DNA of 64,000 nucleotides from an uncultured Candidatus Binatia bacterium (GTDB taxonomy: Bacteria > Desulfobacterota > Binatia > UBA9968 > JAJDTQ01), in contig OZ251459.1 in the NCBI GenBank assembly GCA_965242525.1, forward strand, positions 1,344,001 to 1,408,000, written 5' to 3'. Below the pieces are notes generated by a model that was not told the origin of the DNA, made no database searches, and was given only the letters and a program-made list of their open reading frames with translations. Both the position numbers and the translations under genes were made by a program. Positions 1 through 47,447 of the stretch are shown piece after piece (the first letter of the stretch is position 1; every line of letters begins with the position of its first letter).

Positions 1-614
1 GTCAAGGCCCCCAGGGAAACGAGGGGGTGCACGCCGATGCAGACCGCGGCTTCCAGGGGCTCGCCCTTCTCCTCGGCGCGGCGGAAATACTCGAACATGC
101 GCCGCCGGGAGTGGAGGCTGACCCCCAGCCTGCGCGGTCCCTTGAGCTGCATCCGGTGGAACCCCGCGGTGCTCATGCCCGACAGGGGGTCCCGCGCCAC
201 CAGCAACCCCGCGGTCACGTAGGGGCCGCCGTCCTGCTCGAAATGGGTCAGGACCGGAAGCCGCCGGAGGTCCACCTCCCGGTGGAGCACGCTGTTCTCC
301 CGGTACGGGGCGTCCTTGCACAACTTGGGGGGAACGGGCCGCTGGATGCGCTCCTTGAACTCGTGGACCAGCCGTTCTTCCGACGTATCGAAGGCCCAGG
401 CCAGACGGGGGCGGTGCGCCAGCACGTTGGCCGCCACCGGGAACCCGCTTCCCACGTCCCGGAACAGGACCGCGGGGCAGTCAGGCAGCCGCTCCGCCTC
501 CATGACCACCGCGGTGGCCTCGAACTCCGCAGCCACGGCCTGCTCCACCTCGAACAGTTGCTCGGGGCGTTGGTCCTTCAACCGCTTCAGGAAACCCTGT
601 AGATCCTGCGACAC
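1..614 (-). CDS. UbiD-family (prFMN-dependent) decarboxylase, N-terminal part; runs off the window edge
   Basis: Not in the ORF track. Manual translation from GTG 614: MSQDLQGFLKRLKDQRPEQLFEVEQAVAAEFEATAVV...DLRRLPVLTHFEQDGGPYVTAG...FHRMQLKGPRRLGVSLHSRR; clearly paralogous to 61557-62906. Confidence 0.9.
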   Translation of the reverse strand, partial: MSQDLQGFLKRLKDQRPEQLFEVEQAVAAEFEATAVVMEAERLPDCPAVLFRDVGSGFPVAANVLAHRPRLAWAFDTSEERLVHEFKERIQRPVPPKLCKDAPYRENSVLHREVDLRRLPVLTHFEQDGGPYVTAGLLVARDPLSGMSTAGFHRMQLKGPRRLGVSLHSRRRMFEYFRRAEEKGEPLEAAVCIGVHPLVSLGAL

Positions 615-628
615 TCGAACCCCCTCAT

Positions 629-779
629 GGAACATCCGAAGGATCGGGACATGGAGGATGGCCCCGTCACCCTGACCCTCCCGTCCCCGTTCGCCCCCGT
701 CCCTGTTCGCCCCCCGTCTCCGTTCCTTTCCGCCTCCGTTCGTCCTGGGCGTAACGGAGCGGAGTCGAAGGACGCGCTC
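629..779. mobile_element. MITE-A copy (right TIR missing)
   Basis: Left end GGAACATCCGAAGGATCGGGACA; core CGTTCGTCCTGGGCGTAACGGAGCGGAGTCGAAGGACGCGC; flanks TCAT/TCAC. Confidence 0.75.
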
Positions 780-2018
780 TCACCCGCCGCCGCGGAACCG
801 TTCCCGGACCGCGTCCAGGGAGCAGTCCAGGGGGGCCGGCGGCCGGACGGAGCGCAACGCGGCGTCCACGTCCTTGAGGCCGTGGCCGGTGGACAGCACC
901 ACCACCCGTTCCGTGCGCGAGACGTCGCCTCGGTCCACCAGCTTCACCAGCGCCGCCACGGCTACGGCCGCCGCGGGCTCGGCGAAGAGTCCCGTGGTCT
1001 TTCCCAGCAACGGCATGGCTTCGAGGATCTCGCCGTCGGACACGCTCACCGCGCTCCCGCCGGAGGCCCTCAGGTCCTGCACCGCCATGACGCCGTTGCG
1101 CGGCAGCGCCACGCTGATGCTGTCGGCCAGGGTGTCCGGCGTCACCGGACGGACCACCCCGTCCCCTTCCAGCGCCAGCTTGACGGCCTGGGAGCCTTCG
1201 GCCTGGGCCGCCACCAGCCGGGGCAGCCGGGAGATCCATCCCAGTCCGTGGAGGTCCACCAGCCCCTTCCACACCCCGCTCAGGATGCACCCGTCCCCCA
1301 CCGGGACGATGACGGTGTCCGGGGGCTCCCAGCCGAGCTGCTCGACGGTCTCCAGCGCCACGGTCTTCTTCCCCTCCACGGTGTAGGGGTTGTAACCGGT
1401 GTTGCGGTTGTACCAGTCGAATTCGTCGCTGGCCCGGACGCAGAGGCTGAAGGCCTCGGAATAGCCGCCCCGGACCGGGAGCACGTCCGCGCCGAACACC
1501 AGGAGCTGGGCCACCTTGGCCCTGGGTGCCGACTCGGGCACGAAGATATGGCACCGCGCCCCCAGGGCCGCGGACAGGCACGCCAGCGACGCGCCGGCGT
1601 TGCCGGTGGAGGCGGCAGCGAACTCGCGCCGGCCGAGCTCCCGCCCCTTGAGCAGCACCACGGAGCTGGCCCGGTCCTTCAGGGAGGCCGAGGGGTTGAC
1701 GGTGTCGTCCTTGATCCAGAGCCGTTCCAGGCCCAGGGACTTGCGCAGACCCGGGACCGGATAGAGGGGCGTCCCCCCCACCGCCAGCGGGAACTCGACG
1801 CGTTCGGCCGCCAGGGGAAGCAGCGGCAGGTACCGCCAGTGGTCCCGGAACGGCGCCGCGCCCACTTGGTCCCGGCTCACGGTCTCCCGGATGCGGTCGT
1901 AGTCGTAGGCGGCCCGCAGGGTCCCCAACTCGCCGCACCCGGGGCAACCGTACCGCCGCGGGTCTTCCCCGTACGCGGCGCCGCACAGGACGCACGTGAG
2001 GCTCACGGGAAGGGGCAT
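780..2018 (-). CDS. Threonine synthase-like PLP enzyme (fold type II)
   Basis: N-terminal CxxC..CxxC, GGTPL, NPSASLKDR Schiff-base Lys, ASTGNAG, EGKKT, VPVGDG, EPAAA; start reassigned to ATG 2018 (MPLPVSLTC). Confidence 0.88.
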   Translation of the reverse strand: MPLPVSLTCVLCGAAYGEDPRRYGCPGCGELGTLRAAYDYDRIRETVSRDQVGAAPFRDHWRYLPLLPLAAERVEFPLAVGGTPLYPVPGLRKSLGLERLWIKDDTVNPSASLKDRASSVVLLKGRELGRREFAAASTGNAGASLACLSAALGARCHIFVPESAPRAKVAQLLVFGADVLPVRGGYSEAFSLCVRASDEFDWYNRNTGYNPYTVEGKKTVALETVEQLGWEPPDTVIVPVGDGCILSGVWKGLVDLHGLGWISRLPRLVAAQAEGSQAVKLALEGDGVVRPVTPDTLADSISVALPRNGVMAVQDLRASGGSAVSVSDGEILEAMPLLGKTTGLFAEPAAAVAVAALVKLVDRGDVSRTERVVVLSTGHGLKDVDAALRSVRPPAPLDCSLDAVRERFRGGG

Positions 2019-2020
2019 GG

Positions 2021-3055
2021 TCAGCGGACGAAGTGGAGGTTGCGGCGGGCCAGGTTGGCCCGGTCTTCGTCCCGCACCGGATGCTCCCGGTCGGGGATCT
2101 CGACGGTCTGCTCCTTTCCGAACAACGGCGTGGAGAAGTAGCGCATGCCGGTGTCGTTGATCATGGTCACGATCATCCCGGTGGAAGGCAGCGCCGCGGA
2201 CAGCTTGTTGGCCGCGGCCACGTTGCAGCCGGACGAGATGCCGCACAGTACGCCTTCCTCCCGCGCCAGGCGCCGGGCCATGTGGATGGCGTCCGCGGAG
2301 GAGACCGTGACCACCCCGTCCACGTAGTCCAGGTCCAGGTTCCCGGGGATGAAGCCGTCGCCGATGCCCTCGATGGCGTGGGGTCCCCAGGACCCGCCCG
2401 ACAGGATCGGGCATTCCTCGGGCTCCACCGCGTAGATCCGCACGTCCGGGTTCTGCTCCTTCAGCCGCTTGCCCACGCCGGACACGGTGCCGCCGCTGCC
2501 CTGGGAGGCCACGAACACGTCCACCTGGCCGTCGGTCTGGCGCCATATCTCCGGGCCCGTGGTCTCGTAGTGGGCCGCGATGTTGTCCCGGTTGGAGAAC
2601 TGTCCGGGTTCCCAGTAGCGCCCCGGATGGGCGCGCTTGAGCTCCTCCACCTTCTCCAGGCACAGGTCCACGTCGCTCTCGGCCCCGGGGGTCAGCACCA
2701 GCTCCGCGCCGTACGCGCGCATGGTGGCCTTGCGTTCCTCGCTCATACCCTCGGGCATCACCACCACCACCGGATATCCGCACACCGCCCCGATCATGGA
2801 GGTGGCGATGCCGGTGCTGCCGGTGGAGGCTTCCAGGATCGTCATGCCGGGCCGGAGCTCGCCGCGCTCCTCCGCGCTCCGCACCATGCGGCGCAGGATG
2901 CGGTCCTTGAGGCTCGCCGAAGGGTTCATGAACTCCAGCTTGCCGCACAGGGACTGGGGTCCCGCGGCCACCTTGCGCAGCCGGAGCAGCGGCGTCAGGC
3001 CCGCGGCCTCGGTGATGTCCTCCGCGATCCGTCCCCGGGATGCCCAGTCCGTCAT
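2021..3055 (-). CDS. Cysteine synthase-family PLP enzyme
   Basis: NPSASLKDRI, HYETTGPEIW, GSGGTVSG, HAIEGIG, GISSG, DTGMRY motifs; start reassigned to ATG 3055. Confidence 0.88.
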   Translation of the reverse strand: MTDWASRGRIAEDITEAAGLTPLLRLRKVAAGPQSLCGKLEFMNPSASLKDRILRRMVRSAEERGELRPGMTILEASTGSTGIATSMIGAVCGYPVVVVMPEGMSEERKATMRAYGAELVLTPGAESDVDLCLEKVEELKRAHPGRYWEPGQFSNRDNIAAHYETTGPEIWRQTDGQVDVFVASQGSGGTVSGVGKRLKEQNPDVRIYAVEPEECPILSGGSWGPHAIEGIGDGFIPGNLDLDYVDGVVTVSSADAIHMARRLAREEGVLCGISSGCNVAAANKLSAALPSTGMIVTMINDTGMRYFSTPLFGKEQTVEIPDREHPVRDEDRANLARRNLHFVR

Positions 3056-3081
3056 GTTCGTTCCCTCCTGCCGGCGCCCCG

Positions 3082-3954
3082 TCAGAGCCCCAGCATGGCC
3101 CTGGGGTTGTCCACGATCAGCTTCTCCACGTTCCGGGGCGAGACCCCCTTCTCGTAGAGCCCCTGGGCGTAGAGCCACAGGGCCTCGGGGGGCAGCGGGT
3201 TGTGGGACTGGCCGGTGTCGCTCATGACCACGCAGTTGTCGAACCCCATGGAGTCCATGATCCCCTTGGTGAACTCCAGGTTGACGTAGGCCCACATGGG
3301 CGAGATGGTGCAGTAGCCGAACTCGCCGATGGCGCCGTAGCGCATCATCTGCTTCAGGAAGTCCAGGTTCATGCCCGCGGGCACGCGGAAATAGGGATGG
3401 GTGATGAGGATCTTCTTCACCCCCCGCTCGTGGGCCGCCTTCACCAGCAGCTCGATCTCCCCCAGGGAGAGGTGGGCGGTCCCCAGGATGGCGTCGTACT
3501 TGGCGACGAGCTCCAGCACCACCATGGCCTCCTCCACCACCTTGCCGTCCCTGACCGCGGAGATGGGCTCGCCCCAGACGAAGTCCGCCCCGCTACTCTG
3601 GGTGTCGTAGCTGCCCCTGGCCCCGTGGACCTCCACGTGGTGGGCGGCGTCGATGGTCGGCATCCAGATCTCCTTGGCGCCCAGCCGGAGGCCCACCTCG
3701 GCCGCGGCCGGGTTGATGCCGCCCACGAACTGGTTCATCACCACGCCGCCGAACACCTTGATGTCGGGGAAGTCCTTCTGGATGAGGTAGGCCCGGCTCA
3801 CCGTGCTTTCGTGGTGGCACTTCAGCACGATGGCGGCCATGCCCGCGTCCGACGCGGCCTGCACCGCCTGGCGGTCGTCCACCCGCCGCTGGAAGACGCA
3901 GGGATACGAATGCACGTGCAGGTCCACGGCCCCGTCGAGTTTCATGAATTCCAT
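3082..3954 (-). CDS. Amidohydrolase-fold (DUF6282-like) metalloprotein
   Basis: DLHVHSYP, VLKCH, GGINP, WMPT, GTAHL, ITHP, SDTGQ motifs; start ATG 3954. Confidence 0.75.
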   Translation of the reverse strand: MEFMKLDGAVDLHVHSYPCVFQRRVDDRQAVQAASDAGMAAIVLKCHHESTVSRAYLIQKDFPDIKVFGGVVMNQFVGGINPAAAEVGLRLGAKEIWMPTIDAAHHVEVHGARGSYDTQSSGADFVWGEPISAVRDGKVVEEAMVVLELVAKYDAILGTAHLSLGEIELLVKAAHERGVKKILITHPYFRVPAGMNLDFLKQMMRYGAIGEFGYCTISPMWAYVNLEFTKGIMDSMGFDNCVVMSDTGQSHNPLPPEALWLYAQGLYEKGVSPRNVEKLIVDNPRAMLGL

Positions 3955-4181
3955 AACGTCCCGTCCAGGCGCCCGCCCGGGGCGCGGTTGCGATCCTCGA
4001 TTTCGTCCATCCCCGGAGACTCCGACCCTGCTCCGCCATCCGAACGCCGAGGACCTGAGAAGCGTCGAGCCATTGCAGCATGGAACATAACACTTGACGG
4101 GCAGGACCGGAAGGCGGCGACGCAGGCCCCGGGCGGCTCGATCCTTCCGGCTGCCCACCGGCAAGGAGGCTCGGGCCACGA

Positions 4182-4276
4182 CGACTCTTTCGACCGGAGT
4201 CGAAAGTGGCTGCGACTTTTTTTGACCGTAGTCAAAAGTAGCCGCGACTTTTTTTGACTACGGTAGAAATTAGCTG
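4182..4276. repeat. Three tandem 31-32 bp units with internal palindromes; putative operator array
   Basis: CGACTCTTTCGACCGGAGTCGAAAGTGGCTG / CGACTTTTTTTGACCGTAGTCAAAAGTAGCCG / CGACTTTTTTTGACTACGGTAGAAATTAGCTG, ending 12 bp before ATG 4289. Confidence 0.75.
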
Positions 4277-4288
4277 TATCCTTGAGAC

Positions 4289-5407
4289 ATGGCAGAGACG
4301 CCCCGCTACCTCTCCGGACAGGTCCTGTCCGACCTCCGCCGCAAGATGGTGTTCGTGGCGGGCCCCCGACAGGTGGGCAAGACCACCTTCGCGCGGAGCC
4401 TGCCCGGCGCCCCGGAGGGTTACCTCAACTGGGACGTGGCCGCGCACCGGCATCGCATCCTGCGGCGCGAACTGCCCCCGTCCGGCCTCTGGGTCTTCGA
4501 CGAGATCCACAAATACCGCCAGTGGCGCGGCTACCTCAAGGGCTTGTACGACGACCGCGGGGAGGGCCAACGGATCCTCGTGACCGGCAGCGGCCGGCTC
4601 GACCTCTACAGGTTCGGCGGCGACGCCCTGCAGGGGCGCTACCACCTGCTGCGGCTGCATCCCTTCTCCGTGGCCGAAGCGGGCGTGGGCACGCCCGCGG
4701 AGCTGCGCGACCTGCTGGAGCTCGGCGGCTTTCCCGAGCCCTGGCTGTCGGGCAGCCGCCGGGAAGCAAGGCGCTGGTCCCGGGAGTACCGGGCCCGGCT
4801 CGTGCGCGAGGAAGCGGCCACCCTCGAGCAGGTCCGGGACCTCGGCCAGTTGGAGCTGATGATGCTGGCCCTGCCCGAGAGGGTGGGCGCGCCGCTTTCC
4901 GTCAACGCCCTGCGCGAGGACTTGCAGGTGAGCCACAAGACCGCGGACGCCTGGCTCGGCGCCCTGGAGCGGCTGTACGCCATCTTCCGGCTGCCGCCGT
5001 TCGGCTCGCCCCGCCTGCGCGCGGTCAAGAAGCAGTGCAAGCACTACCACTTCGACTGGACCCTGGCGCCCGAAGACGGGGCGCGTTTCGAGAACCTCAC
5101 CGCCTGCCACCTGCTCAAGTGGGTCCACCACCAACAGGACACCGAGGGGTTGGACCTGGAGTTGCGCTACTTCCGCGACAAGGACGGCCGGGAAGTCGAT
5201 TTCGTCGTCGAGCAGCGGAGAACCCCGTCGCTGCTGGTCGAATGCAAGTGGTCCGACGCCCCTCCGGACCGAGGCCTCAAGTACCTGAAGGCAAGGTTCC
5301 CCAAGGCCGAGGCATGGCAGGTCTCCGCCATCGGCGTGAAGGACTACGTAACCCCGGAAGGAATCCGCGTAGCCCCCGCACTGGCGCTGTTGTCCGGGCT
5401 GGCGTAG
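4289..5407 (+). CDS. AAA_14 ATPase with C-terminal DUF4143 (PD-(D/E)XK-like) domain
   Basis: Walker A GPRQVGKTT, Walker B VFDEIHK, VTGS, GGFPEP, FENL, REVDF...VECK. Confidence 0.9.
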   Translation: MAETPRYLSGQVLSDLRRKMVFVAGPRQVGKTTFARSLPGAPEGYLNWDVAAHRHRILRRELPPSGLWVFDEIHKYRQWRGYLKGLYDDRGEGQRILVTGSGRLDLYRFGGDALQGRYHLLRLHPFSVAEAGVGTPAELRDLLELGGFPEPWLSGSRREARRWSREYRARLVREEAATLEQVRDLGQLELMMLALPERVGAPLSVNALREDLQVSHKTADAWLGALERLYAIFRLPPFGSPRLRAVKKQCKHYHFDWTLAPEDGARFENLTACHLLKWVHHQQDTEGLDLELRYFRDKDGREVDFVVEQRRTPSLLVECKWSDAPPDRGLKYLKARFPKAEAWQVSAIGVKDYVTPEGIRVAPALALLSGLA

Positions 5408-5557
5408 GGACCGTCCCCGCGTAAGCGGAGAAGCCAGGCTCACCTGGTTCGCCTGCTATTGCTGGTGCGGATCGTCCCCGCGTAAGCGGAGAAGCCCCGG
5501 GCGGCGCCGCGGACATGGACCCTGGTTGCGGATTGGCCCTGCGTAAGCGGAGAAGCC
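5407..5557 (-). CRISPR. Orphan type I-E-like CRISPR mini-array: 3 repeats (29 bp), 2 spacers (32 bp)
   Basis: Repeats at 5407-5435, 5468-5496 and 5529-5557 (61-bp period). Minus-strand repeat GGCTTCTCCGCTTACGCGGGGACGATCCG has the I-E layout: 6-bp stem, 4-nt loop, 8-nt 3' handle. Spacers 5436-5467 and 5497-5528 are unrelated to each other. Confidence 0.8.
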
Positions 5558-5634
5558 GGTAGCGGGCAACGGCGCTTGCCGTCGTTCCCGCAAAAAACCC
5601 CGCACCGTCATTCCCGCGAAAGCGGGAATCCACT
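5558..5634. repeat. Left arm: leader-like segment plus REP-like doublet GTCATTCCCGCGAAAGCGGGAATCCAC
   Basis: Inverted copy at 7216-7300; same doublet at 42183-42235 and 42461-42513; contains the ATTCCC-N8-GGGAAT palindrome. Confidence 0.85.
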
Positions 5635-5685
5635 TTGGTCTCGTTGTATGAACCTCTCCGGGTTGGATACTCTTCTCGATCCATT
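5635..5685 (-). pseudogene. 3'-end remnant of a small GIY-YIG endonuclease gene
   Basis: Reverse complement TGGATCGAGAAGAGTATCCAACCCGGAGAGGTTCATACAACGAGA aligns by eye with 42402-42447 TGGATCGAGAAGGGTTGTCCGAGTTGGAGATGTTTGTACAACGAGA. Confidence 0.6.
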
Positions 5686-5752
5686 TTCCCTCACCCTGAC
5701 CCCCATACCCGTTCGTCCTGAGCGTAGCGAAGCGGAGTCGAAGGACGCGCTC
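5686..5752. mobile_element. MITE-A partial copy (left flank of nuclease gene)
   Basis: TCCCTCACCCTGACCCCCATACCCGTTCGTCCTGAGCGTAGCGAAGCGGAGTCGAAGGACGCGC. Confidence 0.8.
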
Positions 5753-5840
5753 TAGCGCCTATGGGGTTGGGGCAGGGCTTCCGTGCAAGCCGATCCACTC
5801 AAAAGCCGGAAGAGCCGAGGATAGCAGGCATGGGCAGGCG

Positions 5841-7016
5841 TCAGGAGGTTTGCAGGTCGTCAAGCACTTTGGCGAGCCTTGCCGCCAATGTCTCTACATG
5901 CGTCGCCACGTCATGGTGCGCGATTAACCGAGCCCTCACTGTGTCAGGGCGACGGTGCTGCTCGCCGAAAGGATCATTTTCGAACTGGCTGACCCAATCA
6001 TCCAGGATCTTCAGGCGCTTGGGATGAAGCAGCGAGGCGTAGGCAGGGGAGTCCTTGGATGCGCTTTCTCCGAATGCGTAATCGCGCAACCCCATCCAGA
6101 AAGGGCTGTCGGAAGGCGGGTAGAACCAGGCCACTGTGATGAGCCAAGGATAGCTCTCTTCAGGAGGTTTCACCCTGATAGAGAAGCCTTTATCACCTGG
6201 TACGACTTTGGCTCCATGCTCCTCGGCGATCCCAAAGAGCCGTTGGGTTGCACGACGCACCTCATCACCGGGCAAGTTGTCCAAGAAGGAGTTGCGGTCG
6301 ATCTTCGTGCGCTTGTGGGACCCGTCACGCTTGCTCGGCGAGGCCGCCGTGTGTCCAATGACGCGAGGCACGAGCGTGCTGCGCGCCTCGGACTCGCCTT
6401 TGAACTGCTTGACCTCGACGGCCAGCACCTCGATGTTGTCACGCAGTTGCGCGTTCAGGAACTCGACGATGCGGGCGAGTTCAGTGGGTATGGCGTCTGC
6501 CACGAACAGCAAGCGCAGGCGTTTGGCGTCGAGGTTCCTGGCGACTTTGCGCCAAAACGCCTCTGCGTCCAGTTCTTCGTCCTCGGGCTGGAGCAGGTCT
6601 TGCAGCGCCTTGTCTGTGGCTGCGGAATCTCCCCAAGTCTTCTCGAAGGACTGGCGCAAGGTTTCCGGTGTCCAGAACTGCGAGGCGTTTGCGGCATAGT
6701 CCAGCATCTGGCCGACGACCTCACGCCGTATCTGTGTGTTCGAACCCCGCTTCACCTCGACGAGCGTCGGCACGGCGTCCTGGTCAACGAACAGGTGGTC
6801 CAGCGACCAGCGGTCGGACTCGCCGGACGCGGCCGGTACGCCCATCTCGCGCTTGACGAGCAGCCATCGCCGGGGGTTGCCCGGACTCATTTGTTCTCCG
6901 TCCAGCAAATGGGGGTACTCGGCAAGGAGTTTCTGCATGTGGTCTTCCGACTCGAACCGCTGTTCTTCCATCGACTCCAGGTTGTCCCCATCCAGGATGT
7001 AGATGCGTTCGGCCAT
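5841..7016 (-). CDS. PD-(D/E)XK nuclease (NucS/RecB-like N-terminal domain) with uncharacterised C-terminal domain
   Basis: E...SLDHLFVD...LVEVKR...GQMLDY motif; visibly more A/T-ending codons than neighbouring genes. Confidence 0.75.
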   Translation of the reverse strand: MAERIYILDGDNLESMEEQRFESEDHMQKLLAEYPHLLDGEQMSPGNPRRWLLVKREMGVPAASGESDRWSLDHLFVDQDAVPTLVEVKRGSNTQIRREVVGQMLDYAANASQFWTPETLRQSFEKTWGDSAATDKALQDLLQPEDEELDAEAFWRKVARNLDAKRLRLLFVADAIPTELARIVEFLNAQLRDNIEVLAVEVKQFKGESEARSTLVPRVIGHTAASPSKRDGSHKRTKIDRNSFLDNLPGDEVRRATQRLFGIAEEHGAKVVPGDKGFSIRVKPPEESYPWLITVAWFYPPSDSPFWMGLRDYAFGESASKDSPAYASLLHPKRLKILDDWVSQFENDPFGEQHRRPDTVRARLIAHHDVATHVETLAARLAKVLDDLQTS

Positions 7017-7022
7017 GTTCTT

Positions 7023-7119
7023 GCGCCCTTCGACTCCGCTGCGCTACGCTCAGGACGAACGGGGATGGGGGTCAGGGTGAGGGAATCCACCCTCCATGTC
7101 TCGATTGTCCGGATGTTCC
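7023..7119. mobile_element. MITE-A partial copy, inverted relative to 5686-5752
   Basis: GCGCCCTTCGACTCCGCTGCGCTACGCTCAGGACGAACGGGG...TGTCTCGATTGTCCGGATGTTCC (one TIR retained). Confidence 0.8.
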
Positions 7120-7215
7120 TGCCGTTTCATACCCGCTCCCTCCTTCGTGCCCACTTTCTTGTTGGACAATACCCCCTTGTCCTCCTGGAACAGGGAATAA
7201 ACCAGATGTTCCCCA

Positions 7216-7300
7216 AGTGGATTCCCGCTTTCGCGGGAATGACGAGGTGGGCTTTCGCAGGAACGACGGCAAGCACAGTGGATTCCCGTTGCCCGCTACC
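7216..7300. repeat. Right arm: REP-like doublet plus leader-like segment (inverted copy of 5558-5634)
   Basis: GTGGATTCCCGCTTTCGCGGGAATGACGAGGTGGGCTTTCGCAGGAACGACGGCAAGC...CCGTTGCCCGCTACC. Confidence 0.85.
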
Positions 7301-7329
7301 GGCTTCCCTGCTTACGCGGGGATAAGCTC
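7301..7329 (+). CRISPR. Single I-E-like repeat, inverted relative to the 5407-5557 array
   Basis: GGCTTCCCTGCTTACGCGGGGATAAGCTC, preceded by the same CCGTTGCCCGCTACC leader-side sequence as repeat 5529-5557. Confidence 0.6.
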
Positions 7330-7400
7330 GCGGGCACGAGCTGCGCGGCGCCTGCCTCCCGGCTTACTGCCTGCCGGGGCAGGCTCCGCAGGCGCGGTGG

Positions 7401-7467
7401 AACGACGGCTTGACCCCTGCCGCTCCCCTTTCCCCCCTGCCTCACCCACACGAAACCCGGAAGCGCC
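7401..7467. mobile_element. Degenerate right end of the element at 42070-42602
   Basis: AACGACGGCTTGACCCCTGCCGCTCCCCT...ACCCACACGAAACCCGGAAGCGCCC aligns with 42534-42602; abuts a stop codon in both places. Confidence 0.6.
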
Positions 7468-8172
7468 CTATCCTCCGGGATGGGCCGCGGCTTCGGCCGG
7501 TTCCAGGTCGAGGGCGCGGCTCACGGCTTCCAGGGCGGCCTGGTTGCTGGTGACCACGGGCAGGTCGTAGGCCTGGCGCAGTTGCGGCAGGGTCGCCACC
7601 GCCTGGTAGTTGGTGCAGGAGATGAACAGGGCGTCCACCTGCGGGCGGGGGCCCAGCTTCTCCCGGGCGAAGGCCAGGATCTCCCGCGGCTCCACCAGCG
7701 CCAAGTTGAAGTTGACGCTGATGCCCATGCCGTGGATGGACGCCACCTCGATGCCGTCGTCCTCCACGCTGGCCTTGATGCGGACGTTGAGTTCCTCGAT
7801 GTAGGGGGTCAGCACCGCGATGCGCCGCGCCTCCAGGACCGCCAGCATGCTCCGCACCGACTCGATGACGCTGACGGTGGGCTTGCCGGTGACTTCGGAT
7901 ATCCGGCGGCACAGTTCCGCGTCGTAGGCGTTGCCGCGCAGCGCCCCGGCGCTGGTGCAGCCGAACACCACCACGTCCGGCCGGGCGGTGGCCACGTCCC
8001 TGGCCGCGGGGAGCGTGTGCCGGTCCAGCATGGCCTCCTCGCCCTCGACGGTGGTGGCTTCCATGTACATGCGCCCGGTGTGGACCGTGGCCGCCGGCGG
8101 CAGGCAGCGGTAGAAGTCCACCTCCATGACCGTGTTGGAGGAAGGGATGAGCAGTCCGACCCGATGACCCAA
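7468..8172 (-). CDS. Asp/Glu racemase superfamily protein (maleate cis-trans isomerase / arylmalonate decarboxylase-like)
   Basis: GLLIPSSNTVME, FGCTS, LTPY, ISCTN, VVTSNQA. Confidence 0.88.
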   Translation of the reverse strand: MGHRVGLLIPSSNTVMEVDFYRCLPPAATVHTGRMYMEATTVEGEEAMLDRHTLPAARDVATARPDVVVFGCTSAGALRGNAYDAELCRRISEVTGKPTVSVIESVRSMLAVLEARRIAVLTPYIEELNVRIKASVEDDGIEVASIHGMGISVNFNLALVEPREILAFAREKLGPRPQVDALFISCTNYQAVATLPQLRQAYDLPVVTSNQAALEAVSRALDLEPAEAAAHPGG

Positions 8173-46634: not shown

Positions 46635-47447
46635 GTGACCCCTACCCTGACCCTCGCAGTGCTCGGCATATTGCAGGGACTCACCGAGTTCCTGCCCGTG
46701 AGCAGCTCGGGCCACTTGGTGCTGCTCCAGTCCGTGCTTCCGGGTTTCCGGGAGCCGGGCGTGCTGTTCCACGTCACCGTGCACCTAGCGACCCTGGGCG
46801 CCGTGCTCCTCTACTTCCGTCGGGACGTGGCGGCGCTGGCCGTCGCCGCGGTCATGCCCGGCCGGGCGGACCCATCGACCATCCGCCTGCTCCGGCTCGT
46901 GGTCATCGGCACCGTGCCCACCGCCCTCATGGGCCTCGTCTTCGCGGAAGCGCTCGAAAGCCTGTTCTCCAGCGTCTCCACCGCGGCGGGCATGCTGCTG
47001 GTGACCGGAGTCCTGCTCTTCGCCACCGACCGCGCCCCGGAGCGGACCCGCGGGGTCGAGGGCATGGGCGTGGGCCACGCCCTCGTCATCGGCATGGTCC
47101 AGGGCATGGCCATCGTCCCGGGCATCTCCCGCTCGGGGGCCACGGTGGCCGCGGGGGTCTTCTCGGGGCTCGGGCGCGACTTGGCGCTGCGCTATTCGTT
47201 CCTGCTCTCGGTCCCCGCCATACTCGGGGCGTTCGCTCTCCAGCTCCTGACCCACGGCCTCGACGGAGCACGGGAAGTCAACCTCCCGGGCTACGGGTTG
47301 GCCTTCCTGGCCGCGTTCGCGGCCGGCTACGCCAGCATCAACGTGCTGTGGAAGGTGTTGCTGGCGCGCAGGCTCACCTGGTTCGCCTGCTATTGCTGGT
47401 GCGTGGGCCTGGCCGTGTTGCTCGCCCGGTTCCTGCCCCTCGAATAG
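46635..47447 (+). CDS. uppP: Undecaprenyl-diphosphatase
   Basis: GILQGLTEFLPVSSSGHL, PGISRSGAT, SFLLSVP. Confidence 0.95.
   Translation: MTPTLTLAVLGILQGLTEFLPVSSSGHLVLLQSVLPGFREPGVLFHVTVHLATLGAVLLYFRRDVAALAVAAVMPGRADPSTIRLLRLVVIGTVPTALMGLVFAEALESLFSSVSTAAGMLLVTGVLLFATDRAPERTRGVEGMGVGHALVIGMVQGMAIVPGISRSGATVAAGVFSGLGRDLALRYSFLLSVPAILGAFALQLLTHGLDGAREVNLPGYGLAFLAAFAAGYASINVLWKVLLARRLTWFACYCWCVGLAVLLARFLPLE
47370..47401 (-). other. Protospacer of CRISPR spacer 1 (inside uppP)
   Basis: AGGCTCACCTGGTTCGCCTGCTATTGCTGGTG is identical to 5436-5467; PAM-position triplet on the minus strand is ACG (47404-47402). Confidence 0.9.

What the first reader, a model, noticed from the sequence alone, without database searches (positions are those of the whole stretch)
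5407..5557. Orphan I-E-like CRISPR mini-array carrying a perfect self-targeting spacer against uppP
Seen: three 29-bp repeats at an exact 61-bp period with 32-bp unique spacers. Spacer 1 (5436-5467) is identical to 47370-47401 in the 3' part of uppP, and the exact match extends to 35 bp. Read on the minus strand, the repeat folds as CUCCGC/UUAC/GCGGGG (U-G wobble; a C-A mismatch on the other strand) and leaves an 8-nt tail, ACGAUCCG. Established: this is the 29/32 geometry and Cas6e handle of type I-E. No cas gene lies in this 64-kb window. Inference: either a neo-array formed by Cas1-Cas2 integrating chromosomal DNA at a REP-associated site, or a regulatory mini-array whose crRNA, antisense to uppP mRNA, guides Cascade without killing. 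Caveat: the presumed leader-proximal repeat is the most degenerate.
Basis: partly seen in the sequence, partly recalled or inferred. Interest (0 to 1): 0.9.

Follow-up and report, generated by a model that had tools for sequence, protein, structure and literature searches.

The report
Orphan CRISPR mini-array with self-derived spacer
A real but decaying three-repeat CRISPR array of the type I-E kind sits in a genome that no longer has the matching Cas proteins, and one of its two spacers is an exact copy of the bacterium's own uppP gene, a known kind of leftover of CRISPR autoimmunity rather than a new regulatory device.

Summary
There are three 29-nt repeats at an exact 61-bp period with two unrelated 32-nt spacers. 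Spacer 1 matches the genome's single uppP/bacA gene exactly over 35 bp. Contigs from three separate studies carry the same array, so it is not an assembly chimera.

Read on the minus strand, the repeat is 22/29 identical, in register, to cas-linked I-E repeats of genus relatives, and it folds as an I-E hairpin. I found no I-E cas genes in the genome: only two Cas1 genes, in an I-D-like and an I-G locus whose spacers are 35-42 nt. Ten of 27 genus relatives have I-E. This genome also keeps three solitary genus-type I-E repeats elsewhere and a fourth, inverted copy of the mini-array repeat at 7301-7329.

Best reading (0.55): an inert relic written by a since-lost I-E adaptation module. The self spacer is tolerated because no Cascade or Cas3 of that type remains.

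Rival (0.25): a neo-array seeded at a REP-like hairpin.

A Cascade-guided regulatory role is not supported.

Novelty: new member of a known kind.

The parts
5407..5435 (-). Repeat R1. It is the terminal (leader-distal) repeat on the minus strand. Its last 7-8 nt are degenerate and its first plus-strand base is the G of the TAG stop of the upstream ATPase gene.
   Evidence: 2 substitutions against R2. Homology with relative G023 runs to 5413. Positions 5410 and 5411 are polymorphic in run X5.
5436..5467 (-). Spacer 1, the older spacer, an exact copy of own uppP. On the minus strand it is antisense to uppP mRNA.
   Evidence: 35/35 identity, 5435-5469 against 47369-47403. (closest relative G023 has 2 mismatches; none of the 26 relatives is identical).
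5468..5496 (-). Repeat R2, the reference copy: GGCTTCTCCGCTTACGCGGGGACGATCCG on the minus strand.
   Evidence: 22/29 in register with the I-E repeats of relatives G005 and G006.
5497..5528 (-). Spacer 2, the newer spacer, source unknown.
   Evidence: No match in the own genome, the genus, viral contigs or metagenome contigs. Only chance-level hits in phage and plasmid records.
5529..5557 (-). Repeat R3, next to the leader position. It has 3 substitutions and a broken stem.
   Evidence: One further polymorphism at 5535 in run X6.
5558..5760 (.). GC-rich cluster of dispersed REP/MITE elements occupying the leader position. The first 15 nt (GGTAGCGGGCAACGG) recur next to the solitary repeat.
   Evidence: BLAST depth is about 100-800 genome hits per position across 5581-5750. 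No sigma-70-like promoter was found in 5300-7500.
7030..7300 (.). Inverted counterpart of the REP/MITE cluster, on the other side of ORF391.
   Evidence: local alignment of 5466-5748 with the reverse complement of the right flank. (5537-5638 against 7321-7212, 79.5% over 112 nt).
7301..7329 (+). Solitary fourth repeat R' (GGCTTCCCTGCTTACGCGGGGATAAGCTC), inverted relative to the array, with the same 15-nt junction upstream.
   Evidence: Fold -15.1 kcal/mol, z -3.9. 20-21/29 identical to genus I-E repeats.
47369..47403 (+). Protospacer in uppP, 32 nt (47370-47401) plus 1 and 2 flanking matches. On the minus strand the three bases 5' of the 32-nt match read ACG.
46635..47447 (+). uppP/bacA (undecaprenyl-diphosphatase), intact 270-aa ORF and the only copy in the genome.
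   Evidence: PF02673, 1.1e-70.
4289..5407 (+). AAA_14/DUF4143 ATPase gene whose stop codon abuts R1. It matches the candidate defence family PDC-S01.
   Evidence: PF13173, PF13635. (PDLC04790, 3.8e-45).
5841..7016 (-). ORF391, with no Pfam or NCBIfam family but a match to the PADLOC candidate PDC-S11. It is inverted relative to relative G023 and reads toward the array.
   Evidence: PDLC04916, 1.3e-12.

Best explanation
The element is a genuine but orphaned and decaying type I-E-style CRISPR array with 3 repeats and 2 spacers. It was written by an I-E Cas1-Cas2 adaptation module that this lineage once had, or briefly hosted, and has since lost.

Proposed history, with each step marked as shown or inferred:
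1. A 33-nt prespacer was cut from the cell's own chromosome inside uppP. The identity is shown; the enzyme is inferred.
2. It was integrated at the leader-proximal repeat with duplication of a 28-nt repeat, giving the 61-bp period. The geometry is shown. The two repeats that precede a spacer end in G while the terminal one ends in C. This fits the I-E habit, recalled from E. coli, of bringing the last 'repeat' base in with the spacer.
3. A second spacer of unknown source was added later (inferred from its position).
4. The I-E cas genes are now missing. Their absence is shown. That autoimmunity against uppP favoured their loss is inferred.
5. Without selection the array decays. The leader-proximal repeat has lost its stem, the repeats are polymorphic between strains, and the leader position is filled with REP/MITE DNA.

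Today the array most likely does nothing. No Cas6e is present to cut a crRNA and no Cascade or Cas3 of that type is present to act on uppP, which is intact.
For: - Geometry: 29/32 nt at a 61-bp period, with unrelated spacers.
- Repeat identity: the minus-strand repeat matches cas-linked I-E repeats of genus relatives in register at 21-22/29 for G005, G006 and G011a. It matches arrays carrying the GGCTTCCCCGC....GCGGGGA....CCG motif in other phyla at 23/29.
- Fold: the hairpin plus 8-nt tail folds better on the minus strand.
- Origin of spacer 1: it is 35/35 identical to own uppP. The closest relative, G023, has 2 mismatches. All 22 relatives aligned across the whole site have 2-11 mismatches. 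The 4 truncated alignments each show at least 1 mismatch. The spacer therefore came from this lineage.
- Resident adaptation modules do not fit: arrays A and B have 28- and 36-nt repeats and spacers of 35-42 nt, none of 32.
- I-E cas genes are absent: only 2 Cas1 genes, in an I-D-like locus (Csc2) and an I-G locus (GSU0053, Cas3, Cas4-Cas1). Matches for PF08798, PF09344, PF09481, PF09707 and PF09704 were 0 of 1. tblastn with all ORFs of at least 100 aa from 5 I-E loci of relatives gave no cse1, cse2, cas7, cas5, cas6e, cas1 or cas2 hit.
- I-E is at home in the genus: Cas7e is present in 10 of 27 relatives.
- The genome holds other I-E debris: three solitary repeats with 2-3 mismatches to the genus repeat GGTTCCCCCGCACGCGCGGGGATAGACCC, at C1:2437792, 2439580 and 2440777. 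That repeat forms arrays of 10-102 copies in 7 relatives.
- The array is static and real: the same two spacers appear in contigs of runs from 3 studies.
Against: - No canonical AT-rich leader is present. The leader position is GC-rich REP/MITE DNA, whereas relatives' I-E leaders are AT-rich.
- The exact repeat occurs nowhere else that I searched. It was in 0 of 27 genus genomes and 0 of 122 other order genomes at up to 3 mismatches. The 22-nt core was absent from metagenome contigs and viral contigs. In 185,579 species genomes the nearest match to a degenerate pattern was 4 mismatches away.
- Flanking genes are syntenic with G023, with no room for and no trace of a cas operon. The array must therefore have been served in trans.
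- Spacer 1 has 0/35 changes while R3 has 3/29. By my hypergeometric estimate p is about 0.10, so this is a weak hint only that decay and acquisition do not share one clock.
- Absence of I-E cas is shown only for this 7-contig assembly. An unbinned plasmid cannot be excluded.
- In the Pfam searches the I-E-specific families rang in only 1 of 14 control genomes (Thermus), so HMM sensitivity alone is not proof.
Confidence: 0.55

Rival explanations
1. Neo-CRISPR. The 29-nt unit was not a CRISPR repeat to begin with. It was a REP-like hairpin at the end of a REP/MITE cluster. An I-E Cas1-Cas2, resident then or transient, integrated two spacers there off-target and duplicated the hairpin each time. 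The copy at 7301-7329 is the unexpanded sister site.
For: - The leader position is REP/MITE DNA, and the same 15-nt junction plus a single copy of the unit lies inverted at 7301-7329.
- R2 against R' is 22/29 (my hand count), about the same divergence as the flanking arms (79.5% over 112 nt).
- The genome's main REP core (TTCCCGC....GCGGGAA, 460 strand-hits) aligns to the unit at 21/28 with one 1-nt gap, by my hand alignment. The semi-global score is 13, against 14-17 for the better I-E repeats.
- The unit is unique to this genome in every collection searched.
- There are only two spacers, and one is self-derived. Self capture is what naive, interference-free adaptation gives.
- Off-target integration that spawns arrays has been reported in E. 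coli, with circumstantial cases in two other species. I saw this only as passages in 10.1101/148544, PMC7054753 and PMC6698737, not in the original paper.
Against: - Ungapped and in register, the unit matches real I-E repeats far better than REP: 18-23/29 against 8-11/29. The match includes the 5' GG.TTC and the 3' A.GA.CCG tail.
- R' is 20-21/29 to the genus repeats and, by my hand count, 22/29 to the solitary repeat at C1:2437792, with the same CTC end. This suggests descent from true I-E repeats.
- A third copy of the long MITE variant (C1:1708302) lacks the hairpin.
- The orthologous site in G023 has neither the hairpin nor the MITE.
- No Cas1e is present now.
Confidence: 0.25
2. The array is functional. 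Either (a) its transcript or crRNA dampens uppP, or (b) it acts as a 'poison pill' that makes acquisition of a compatible I-E system self-destructive, much as the anti-cas spacers of orphan I-F arrays do in E. coli.
For: - The array and both spacers are unchanged in contigs from 3 studies, including a strain with about 2% divergence in the neighbouring gene (7 differences in 364 nt; 0 in 5435-5534).
- ORF391 reads toward the array on the sense strand, so read-through transcription is possible.
- I-E systems circulate in 10 of 27 genus relatives.
- Orphan arrays that block uptake of cognate cas genes, and regulatory claims for orphan loci, are described in the review PMC8616872 (passages seen).
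Against: - No I-E effector or Cas6e is present in the genome.
- The resident repeats are unrelated.
- No promoter-like site was found.
- The leader-proximal repeat has lost its stem, and the repeats are polymorphic. This pattern fits neutral decay.
- The bases next to the protospacer read ACG, not the AAG-type motif I recall for E. coli I-E, so even a returning Cascade might not cut.
- Conservation over about 100 nt at about 2% divergence is not significant.
Confidence: 0.08
3. The element is not a CRISPR product at all. It would be an assembly chimera, a tandem duplication, or a gene-conversion patch that happens to look periodic.
For: - There are only three repeats.
- Short-read unitigs break inside the 35-bp duplicated stretch (X1 records end at 5464 and start at 5440).
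- No Rfam CRISPR-DR family matched.
Against: - Single contigs from other studies bridge all junctions (X3 4800-5590; X6 5412-5584).
- The spacers are unrelated (9/32), so this is not a tandem duplication.
- The copied uppP piece is bounded exactly by the repeats at the I-E spacer length.
Confidence: 0.02

Closest known systems
Orphan (cas-less) CRISPR arrays left after loss of cas genes, for example the small I-F arrays of most E. coli lineages (Almendros et al. 2016, as described in review PMC8616872; passages seen)
   Same: A small array survives in a genome that lacks the cognate cas genes while relatives still carry them. It sits far from any cas locus.
   Different: Here the informative spacer hits a housekeeping gene of the host (uppP), not cas genes. 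The repeats are already degenerate, and no activity has been tested.
Self-targeting spacers as CRISPR autoimmunity (Stern et al. 2010; Wimmer and Beisel 2020; cited in PMC8616872, passages seen)
   Same: There is a perfect match between a spacer and the carrier chromosome, together with an incomplete, apparently non-functional system. This is the pattern that literature predicts.
   Different: The whole cognate cas set is gone rather than mutated. The flanking motif is ACG. The target is intact and unmutated.
Neo-CRISPR arrays from off-target spacer integration (Nivala, Shipman and Church 2018; original not held; known to me from passages in 10.1101/148544, PMC7054753 and PMC6698737)
   Same: Very short array, a self-derived spacer, a non-canonical leader, a repeat unique to the genome, and a sister site with one unexpanded unit.
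   Different: The unit resembles real I-E repeats along its full length. No single-copy ancestor is seen at the orthologous site of the closest relative. No Cas1-Cas2 of the right type is present.
Mini-arrays and solitary repeat units on viruses and other mobile elements (as summarised in PMC8616872, passage seen)
   Same: One or two spacers, and solitary repeats nearby.
   Different: This array is chromosomal, lying between conserved host genes that are syntenic with a relative. There are no viral or plasmid genes around it, and its repeat core was not found in viral contigs.

Membership tests
Type I-E CRISPR array | 28/29-nt repeats with 32/33-nt spacers (61-bp period) | tested here: met
   spacing 61 and 61, and both spacers are 32 nt. 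Relatives' cas-linked I-E arrays have the same period.
Type I-E CRISPR array | Repeat sequence related to repeats of cas-linked I-E arrays | tested here: met
   Identity in register is 21-22/29 with the arrays next to I-E operons in G005, G006 and G011a, and 18-19/29 with the G011b/G014/G022 type. It is 23/29 with a Vicinamibacterales array whose cas linkage I did not check. No near-identical relative was found anywhere.
Type I-E CRISPR array | Stem-loop near the 3' end of the repeat that leaves an 8-nt handle after Cas6e cleavage | tested here: inconclusive
   The fold is present on the minus strand for R2, R1 and R' (-12.0, -14.6 and -15.1 kcal/mol) but lost in R3. Cleavage itself is not testable here.
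Type I-E CRISPR array | Cognate cas genes (cas3, cse1, cse2, cas7e, cas5e, cas6e, cas1e, cas2e) in the genome | tested here: not met
   Caveats: the assembly is 98.96% complete in 7 contigs, and the I-E Pfam families rang in only 1 of 14 control genomes.
Type I-E CRISPR array | AT-rich leader with promoter upstream of the first repeat | tested here: not met
   The leader position is GC-rich REP/MITE DNA. No sigma-70-like sites were found in 5300-7500. Relatives' leaders are AT-rich.
Type I-E CRISPR array | Protospacer flanked by the system's PAM (AAG-type in E. coli, recalled) | tested here: inconclusive
   The flank reads ACG on the crRNA-sense strand. The PAM of the lost system is unknown.
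Self-targeting spacer (autoimmunity) | Exact spacer match to the carrier's own chromosome outside the array | tested here: met
   (35/35). (no relative is identical).
Self-targeting spacer (autoimmunity) | An effector able to use the spacer | tested here: not met
   No I-E effector genes are present. The repeats of the resident I-D-like and I-G arrays are unrelated.
Neo-CRISPR (off-target integration) | The repeat unit pre-exists as a single non-CRISPR copy at the site (seen in relatives or sister sites) | tested here: inconclusive
   The orthologous site in G023 lacks it. A paralogous single copy with the same junction exists at 7301-7329.
Neo-CRISPR (off-target integration) | Active Cas1-Cas2 of matching spacer length in the cell | tested here: not met
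   Only I-D-like and I-G Cas1 are present, and their arrays carry 35-42-nt spacers.

The most novel reading that the evidence does not exclude
The mini-array is a natural birth of a CRISPR array. An I-E Cas1-Cas2 passing through this lineage mistook a REP-like hairpin at the edge of a REP/MITE cluster for a repeat and expanded it twice, once with a piece of the host's own uppP. The unexpanded sister hairpin at 7301-7329 would show the starting state. REP elements that mimic I-E repeats would then be seeds for new arrays.
Probability: 0.25. Interest if true: 0.6.

Novelty: new member of a known kind. Interest (0 to 1): 0.33.

Why it matters
This is a clean, dated record of CRISPR self-capture in an uncultured lineage. 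The spacer is identical to the host's own gene but differs from every relative. The matching cas genes are gone although 10 of 27 relatives keep them. Other debris of the same system type survives in the genome. Together this fits the long-standing idea that self-targeting drives loss of CRISPR-Cas.

It also offers two modest tests. First, does such an orphan array hinder re-acquisition of I-E systems that circulate in the genus? Second, can REP-like hairpins seed new arrays?

It is not a new mechanism, and nothing suggests that uppP is regulated by it.

Tried and rejected
- Rfam scan of 5200-7600 at E up to 10: no CRISPR-DR family, only three chance-level hits to unrelated families.
- Promoter scan of 5300-7500: 0 sites. 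This is uninformative for a non-sigma-70 or read-through transcript.
- Source of spacer 2. No second copy in the own genome at up to 3 mismatches. The best imperfect match was 23/32, the same as shuffles at 22-24. It was found in 0 of 27 genus relatives. Viral contigs gave nothing for the exact 32-mer or a 20-mer core. Metagenome contigs gave nothing for a 23-mer core. Phage and plasmid records gave only E 0.2-0.9 hits. Source unknown.
- Repeat core in metagenome contigs and viral contigs: none.
- A possible second degenerate repeat and spacer to the right of 7301-7329 (7330-7390, seen in the alignment). I dropped it because 7344-7467 belongs to another dispersed repeat family.
- The ORF L081:11945-13216, which hit C1:4064926-4065693 at 55%. 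I checked it as a possible hidden Cas1. It is a Schlafen AlbA_2/HATPase_c_4 gene inserted in the relative's operon, not a cas gene.
- Expression. My one read-laying run went to DNA-type contigs, so nothing can be said about RNA. Stretches without contig cover are not used as evidence. The joints table 5 fall in REP/MITE DNA and were ignored.
- X5 record 20 has 29 letters that did not lie on the window beyond 5534. I could not see them.
- The original neo-CRISPR paper (PMC5832444) is not held. What I say about it comes from citing passages.
- Supplementary files were not consulted.
- Not used: structure prediction, complex prediction, the search for homologous proteins, the protein-atlas search.
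- Organism name: not determined. Runs X5 and X6, labelled sponge metagenome, hold near-identical contigs.
Full report
OBSERVATION

The window is G000:C1:1344001-1408000 of a 4.23-Mb, 67% G+C assembly in 7 contigs, 98.96% complete.

At 5407-5557 there are three copies of a 29-nt unit with start-to-start spacing of 61 and 61. The outer copies differ from the middle one by 2 and 3 substitutions. The two intervening 32-nt stretches are unrelated: 9/32 identical by hand count on the sequence. The structure is therefore repeat-spacer, not a tandem duplication.

Window 5435-5469 is 100% identical over 35 nt to window 47369-47403. That stretch lies near the 3' end of the intact 270-codon ORF 46635-47447, which is Pfam BacA/UppP (PF02673, 1.1e-70). 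It is the only such gene found in the genome.

The 35 bp are best read as a 33-nt I-E-style spacer plus one chance match at each end. In the cas-linked I-E arrays of relatives the 29th 'repeat' base varies from unit to unit, so these systems in effect use 28-nt repeats and 33-nt spacers. Here the two repeats that precede a spacer end in G on the minus strand, and the terminal one ends in C.

IS THE ARRAY REAL DNA?

Logan contigs of four runs from three studies were laid on 4800-7700.
- X3, record 9, covers 4800-5590 with no difference.
- X6, record 26, covers 5412-5584 with one difference (5535, inside R3).
- X5, records 19 and 20, cover 5101-5464 with 7 differences (two inside R1) and 5435-5534 with none.
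- X1 may be the source sample. It covers the region in two unitigs that break inside the 35-bp duplicate, as a k-mer graph would.

The junctions are therefore real, and the same two spacers are present in every strain seen.

WHAT KIND OF REPEAT IS IT?

On the minus strand the unit reads GGCTTCTCCGCTTACGCGGGGACGATCCG. It folds into a 7-bp stem with a U-G wobble and a UUAC loop, followed by an 8-nt tail. The energy is -12.0 kcal/mol (z -2.6), against -9.2 on the plus strand.

A degenerate pattern scan of 185,579 species genomes found 55 stretches. Many of them are 61-bp-period arrays with GGCTTCCCCGC....GCGGGGA....CCG, in Vicinamibacterales, Longimicrobiales and other MAGs. The nearest is 4 mismatches away.

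Within the genus, 10 of 27 relatives carry Cas7e. Their cas-linked arrays have repeats that match ours in register at 18-22 of 29 positions. The unit is therefore I-E-like in length, spacing, fold and sequence. No close copy exists elsewhere:
- 0 of 27 genus genomes and 0 of 122 other genomes of the order at up to 3 mismatches;
- none in metagenome contigs or viral contigs for the 22-nt core;
- no Rfam CRISPR-DR family matched.

CAS CONTENT OF THE GENOME

Only two Cas1 genes exist.
- One belongs to a locus with Csc2 and a DEAD helicase, next to a 55-repeat array of 28-nt repeats. I call this I-D-like.
- The other is a Cas4-Cas1 fusion with GSU0053 and Cas3, next to a 141-repeat array of 36-nt repeats. 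This is I-G, formerly I-U.

The spacers of these arrays are 35-41 and 35-42 nt. None is 32 nt. Their repeats are unrelated to the mini-array.

Five I-E Pfam families gave no match: Cas6e, Cas7e, Cse1, Cas2e and Cas5. The I-E-specific families rang in only one of 14 control genomes, so I added a direct test. I ran all stop-to-stop ORFs of at least 100 aa from five I-E loci of relatives by tblastn against the genome. No cse1, cse2, cas7, cas5, cas6e, cas1 or cas2 hit appeared. Only weak Cas3-helicase similarity to the I-G Cas3 was seen. One suspicious hit turned out to be an AlbA_2-domain gene.

WHERE DID SPACER 1 COME FROM?

The 32-nt protospacer is exact in the own genome. The closest relative, G023 (92% identical uppP), has 2 mismatches. 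The 22 relatives aligned across the whole site have 2-11. The 4 truncated alignments each show at least one. The spacer was therefore taken from this lineage's own chromosome after it split from G023.

On the sense strand of the array the bases 5' of the protospacer read ACG. The crRNA, if made, would be antisense to uppP mRNA.

Spacer 2 has no detectable source.

SURROUNDINGS

R1 abuts the TAG of an AAA_14/DUF4143 ATPase gene, 4289-5407 (PADLOC PDC-S01, 3.8e-45).

On the other side, after about 280 bp of dispersed REP/MITE elements with hundreds of genomic copies, lies ORF391 (5841-7016, minus strand). It has no Pfam or NCBIfam family but matches PADLOC PDC-S11 at 1.3e-12.

Compared with G023, the flanking genes are colinear at 92-93% identity. 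ORF391 is inverted and only 82.6% identical. G023 has 81 bp and 236 bp of plain spacer DNA where this genome has 367 bp and 413 bp of array plus REP/MITE DNA.

The two flanks of ORF391 are inverted copies of each other. At the outer end of the right flank, 7301-7329, there is a fourth, solitary copy of the unit, GGCTTCCCTGCTTACGCGGGGATAAGCTC. It is preceded by the same 15 nt that precede R3. It folds well (-15.1 kcal/mol, z -3.9).

ORF391 is transcribed toward the array, so read-through could transcribe the sense strand. No promoter-like site was found.

TRACES OF I-E ELSEWHERE IN THE GENOME

A motif search turned up three solitary repeats at C1:2437792, 2439580 and 2440777, all on the plus strand just downstream of a dnaB-like ORF. 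They are 2, 3 and 3 mismatches from GGTTCCCCCGCACGCGCGGGGATAGACCC. That repeat forms arrays of 10-102 copies in seven genus relatives. A second Cas7e-less relative, G002, has three similarly scattered copies.

The lineage has therefore hosted, or recombined with, I-E loci. By hand count R' is 22/29 identical to the first of these solitary repeats, and the two share the final CTC.

INTERPRETATION

The geometry, the sequence kinship, the exact and precisely bounded self copy, and the misfit with both resident adaptation modules all point one way. An I-E Cas1-Cas2 wrote these two spacers. The array is now an orphan. With no Cas6e, Cascade or I-E Cas3 it should be inert, which explains why a perfect match to the only uppP gene is tolerated and why uppP is unmutated. 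Loss of the stem in the leader-proximal repeat, repeat polymorphism between strains, and REP/MITE DNA in place of a leader all fit neutral decay. Self-targeting spacers combined with degenerate systems, and orphan arrays after cas loss, are established patterns (review PMC8616872, passages seen).

I rate this relic reading at 0.55.

THE MAIN RIVAL: A NEO-ARRAY (0.25)

The unit may have been a REP-like hairpin that an I-E integrase expanded off-target, with 7301-7329 as the unexpanded sister.

For it:
- the REP/MITE 'leader';
- the sister site;
- the uniqueness of the unit;
- the self spacer;
- the genome's main REP aligns to the unit at 21/28 with one gap (hand alignment; scores).

Against it:
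- the much better ungapped, full-length match to true I-E repeats (18-23/29 against 8-11/29);
- the kinship of R' with the genome's other I-E debris;
- a third copy of the long MITE variant that lacks the hairpin;
- no single-copy ancestor in G023.

The original report of such events was not available to me. I rely on citing passages.

OTHER RIVALS

A working regulatory or 'poison-pill' role (0.08) lacks any effector, promoter or sign of constraint. An artefact or non-CRISPR origin (0.02) is contradicted and by the unrelated spacers.

VERDICT

The element is a new member of a known kind. Interest is modest. It would rise if population data showed a one-unit ancestor at this site.

Noticed in passing
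window 7301-7329 (+): A solitary fourth copy of the mini-array repeat, inverted relative to the array. It has the same 15-nt upstream junction and lies between two dispersed-repeat elements.
   Followed up: yes
window 5781-7029, compared with L070 (G023:C1:3922000-3941900): ORF391 is inverted relative to the closest relative and is only 82.6% identical, while the flanking genes are 92-93% identical. It is bracketed by inverted REP/MITE arms that could mediate the flip.
   Followed up: partly
window 4289-5407 and 5841-7016: The two genes flanking the array match PADLOC phage-defence-candidate families: PDC-S01 at 3.8e-45 and PDC-S11 at 1.3e-12. The array therefore sits in a small putative defence islet. 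ORF391 has no Pfam or NCBIfam family.
   Followed up: partly
G000:C1:2437792, 2439580, 2440777 (outside the window): Three solitary, slightly degenerate copies of the genus-typical I-E repeat, 1.8 and 1.2 kb apart, downstream of a dnaB-like ORF, with no cas genes. Relative G002, which has no Cas7e, carries three similarly scattered copies. Short conserved elements of about 70-120 nt are shared between the two loci.
   Followed up: partly
G000:C1:424000-439457 (L071): A resident CRISPR-Cas locus with Csc2 (an I-D signature), a DEAD helicase, a 1016-aa protein with no family, and Cas1. Its 55-repeat array has unusually short 28-nt repeats and 35-41-nt spacers. The subtype was not resolved.
   Followed up: no
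G000:C1:745000-765413 (L072): A resident I-G (I-U) locus with GSU0053, Cas3 and a Cas4-Cas1 fusion, carrying a 141-repeat array.
   Followed up: no
window 5580-5760 and 7030-7470; genome-wide: Dispersed repeats are very abundant. The REP core TTCCCGC....GCGGGAA gives 460 strand-hits. The element at 5711-5740 draws about 800 BLAST hits. The main REP resembles I-E repeats in stem and tail.
   Followed up: partly
L081:14453-15091, L082:16767-17432, L083:677-1354: In three genus relatives an RNase_H_2-superfamily gene (PF13482, 2.4e-29) sits directly beside the I-E arrays. G000 has a 43%-identical homolog at C1:3423765-3424247, not next to any array.
   Followed up: no
L081:11945-13216: A Schlafen AlbA_2/HATPase_c_4 gene is inserted between cas6e and cas1 in the I-E operon of relative G011.
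   Followed up: no
window 1-4218: The region upstream of the ATPase gene has no counterpart of at least 150 bp in the 20-kb G023 region that I fetched. Synteny with G023 starts at 4219.
   Followed up: no
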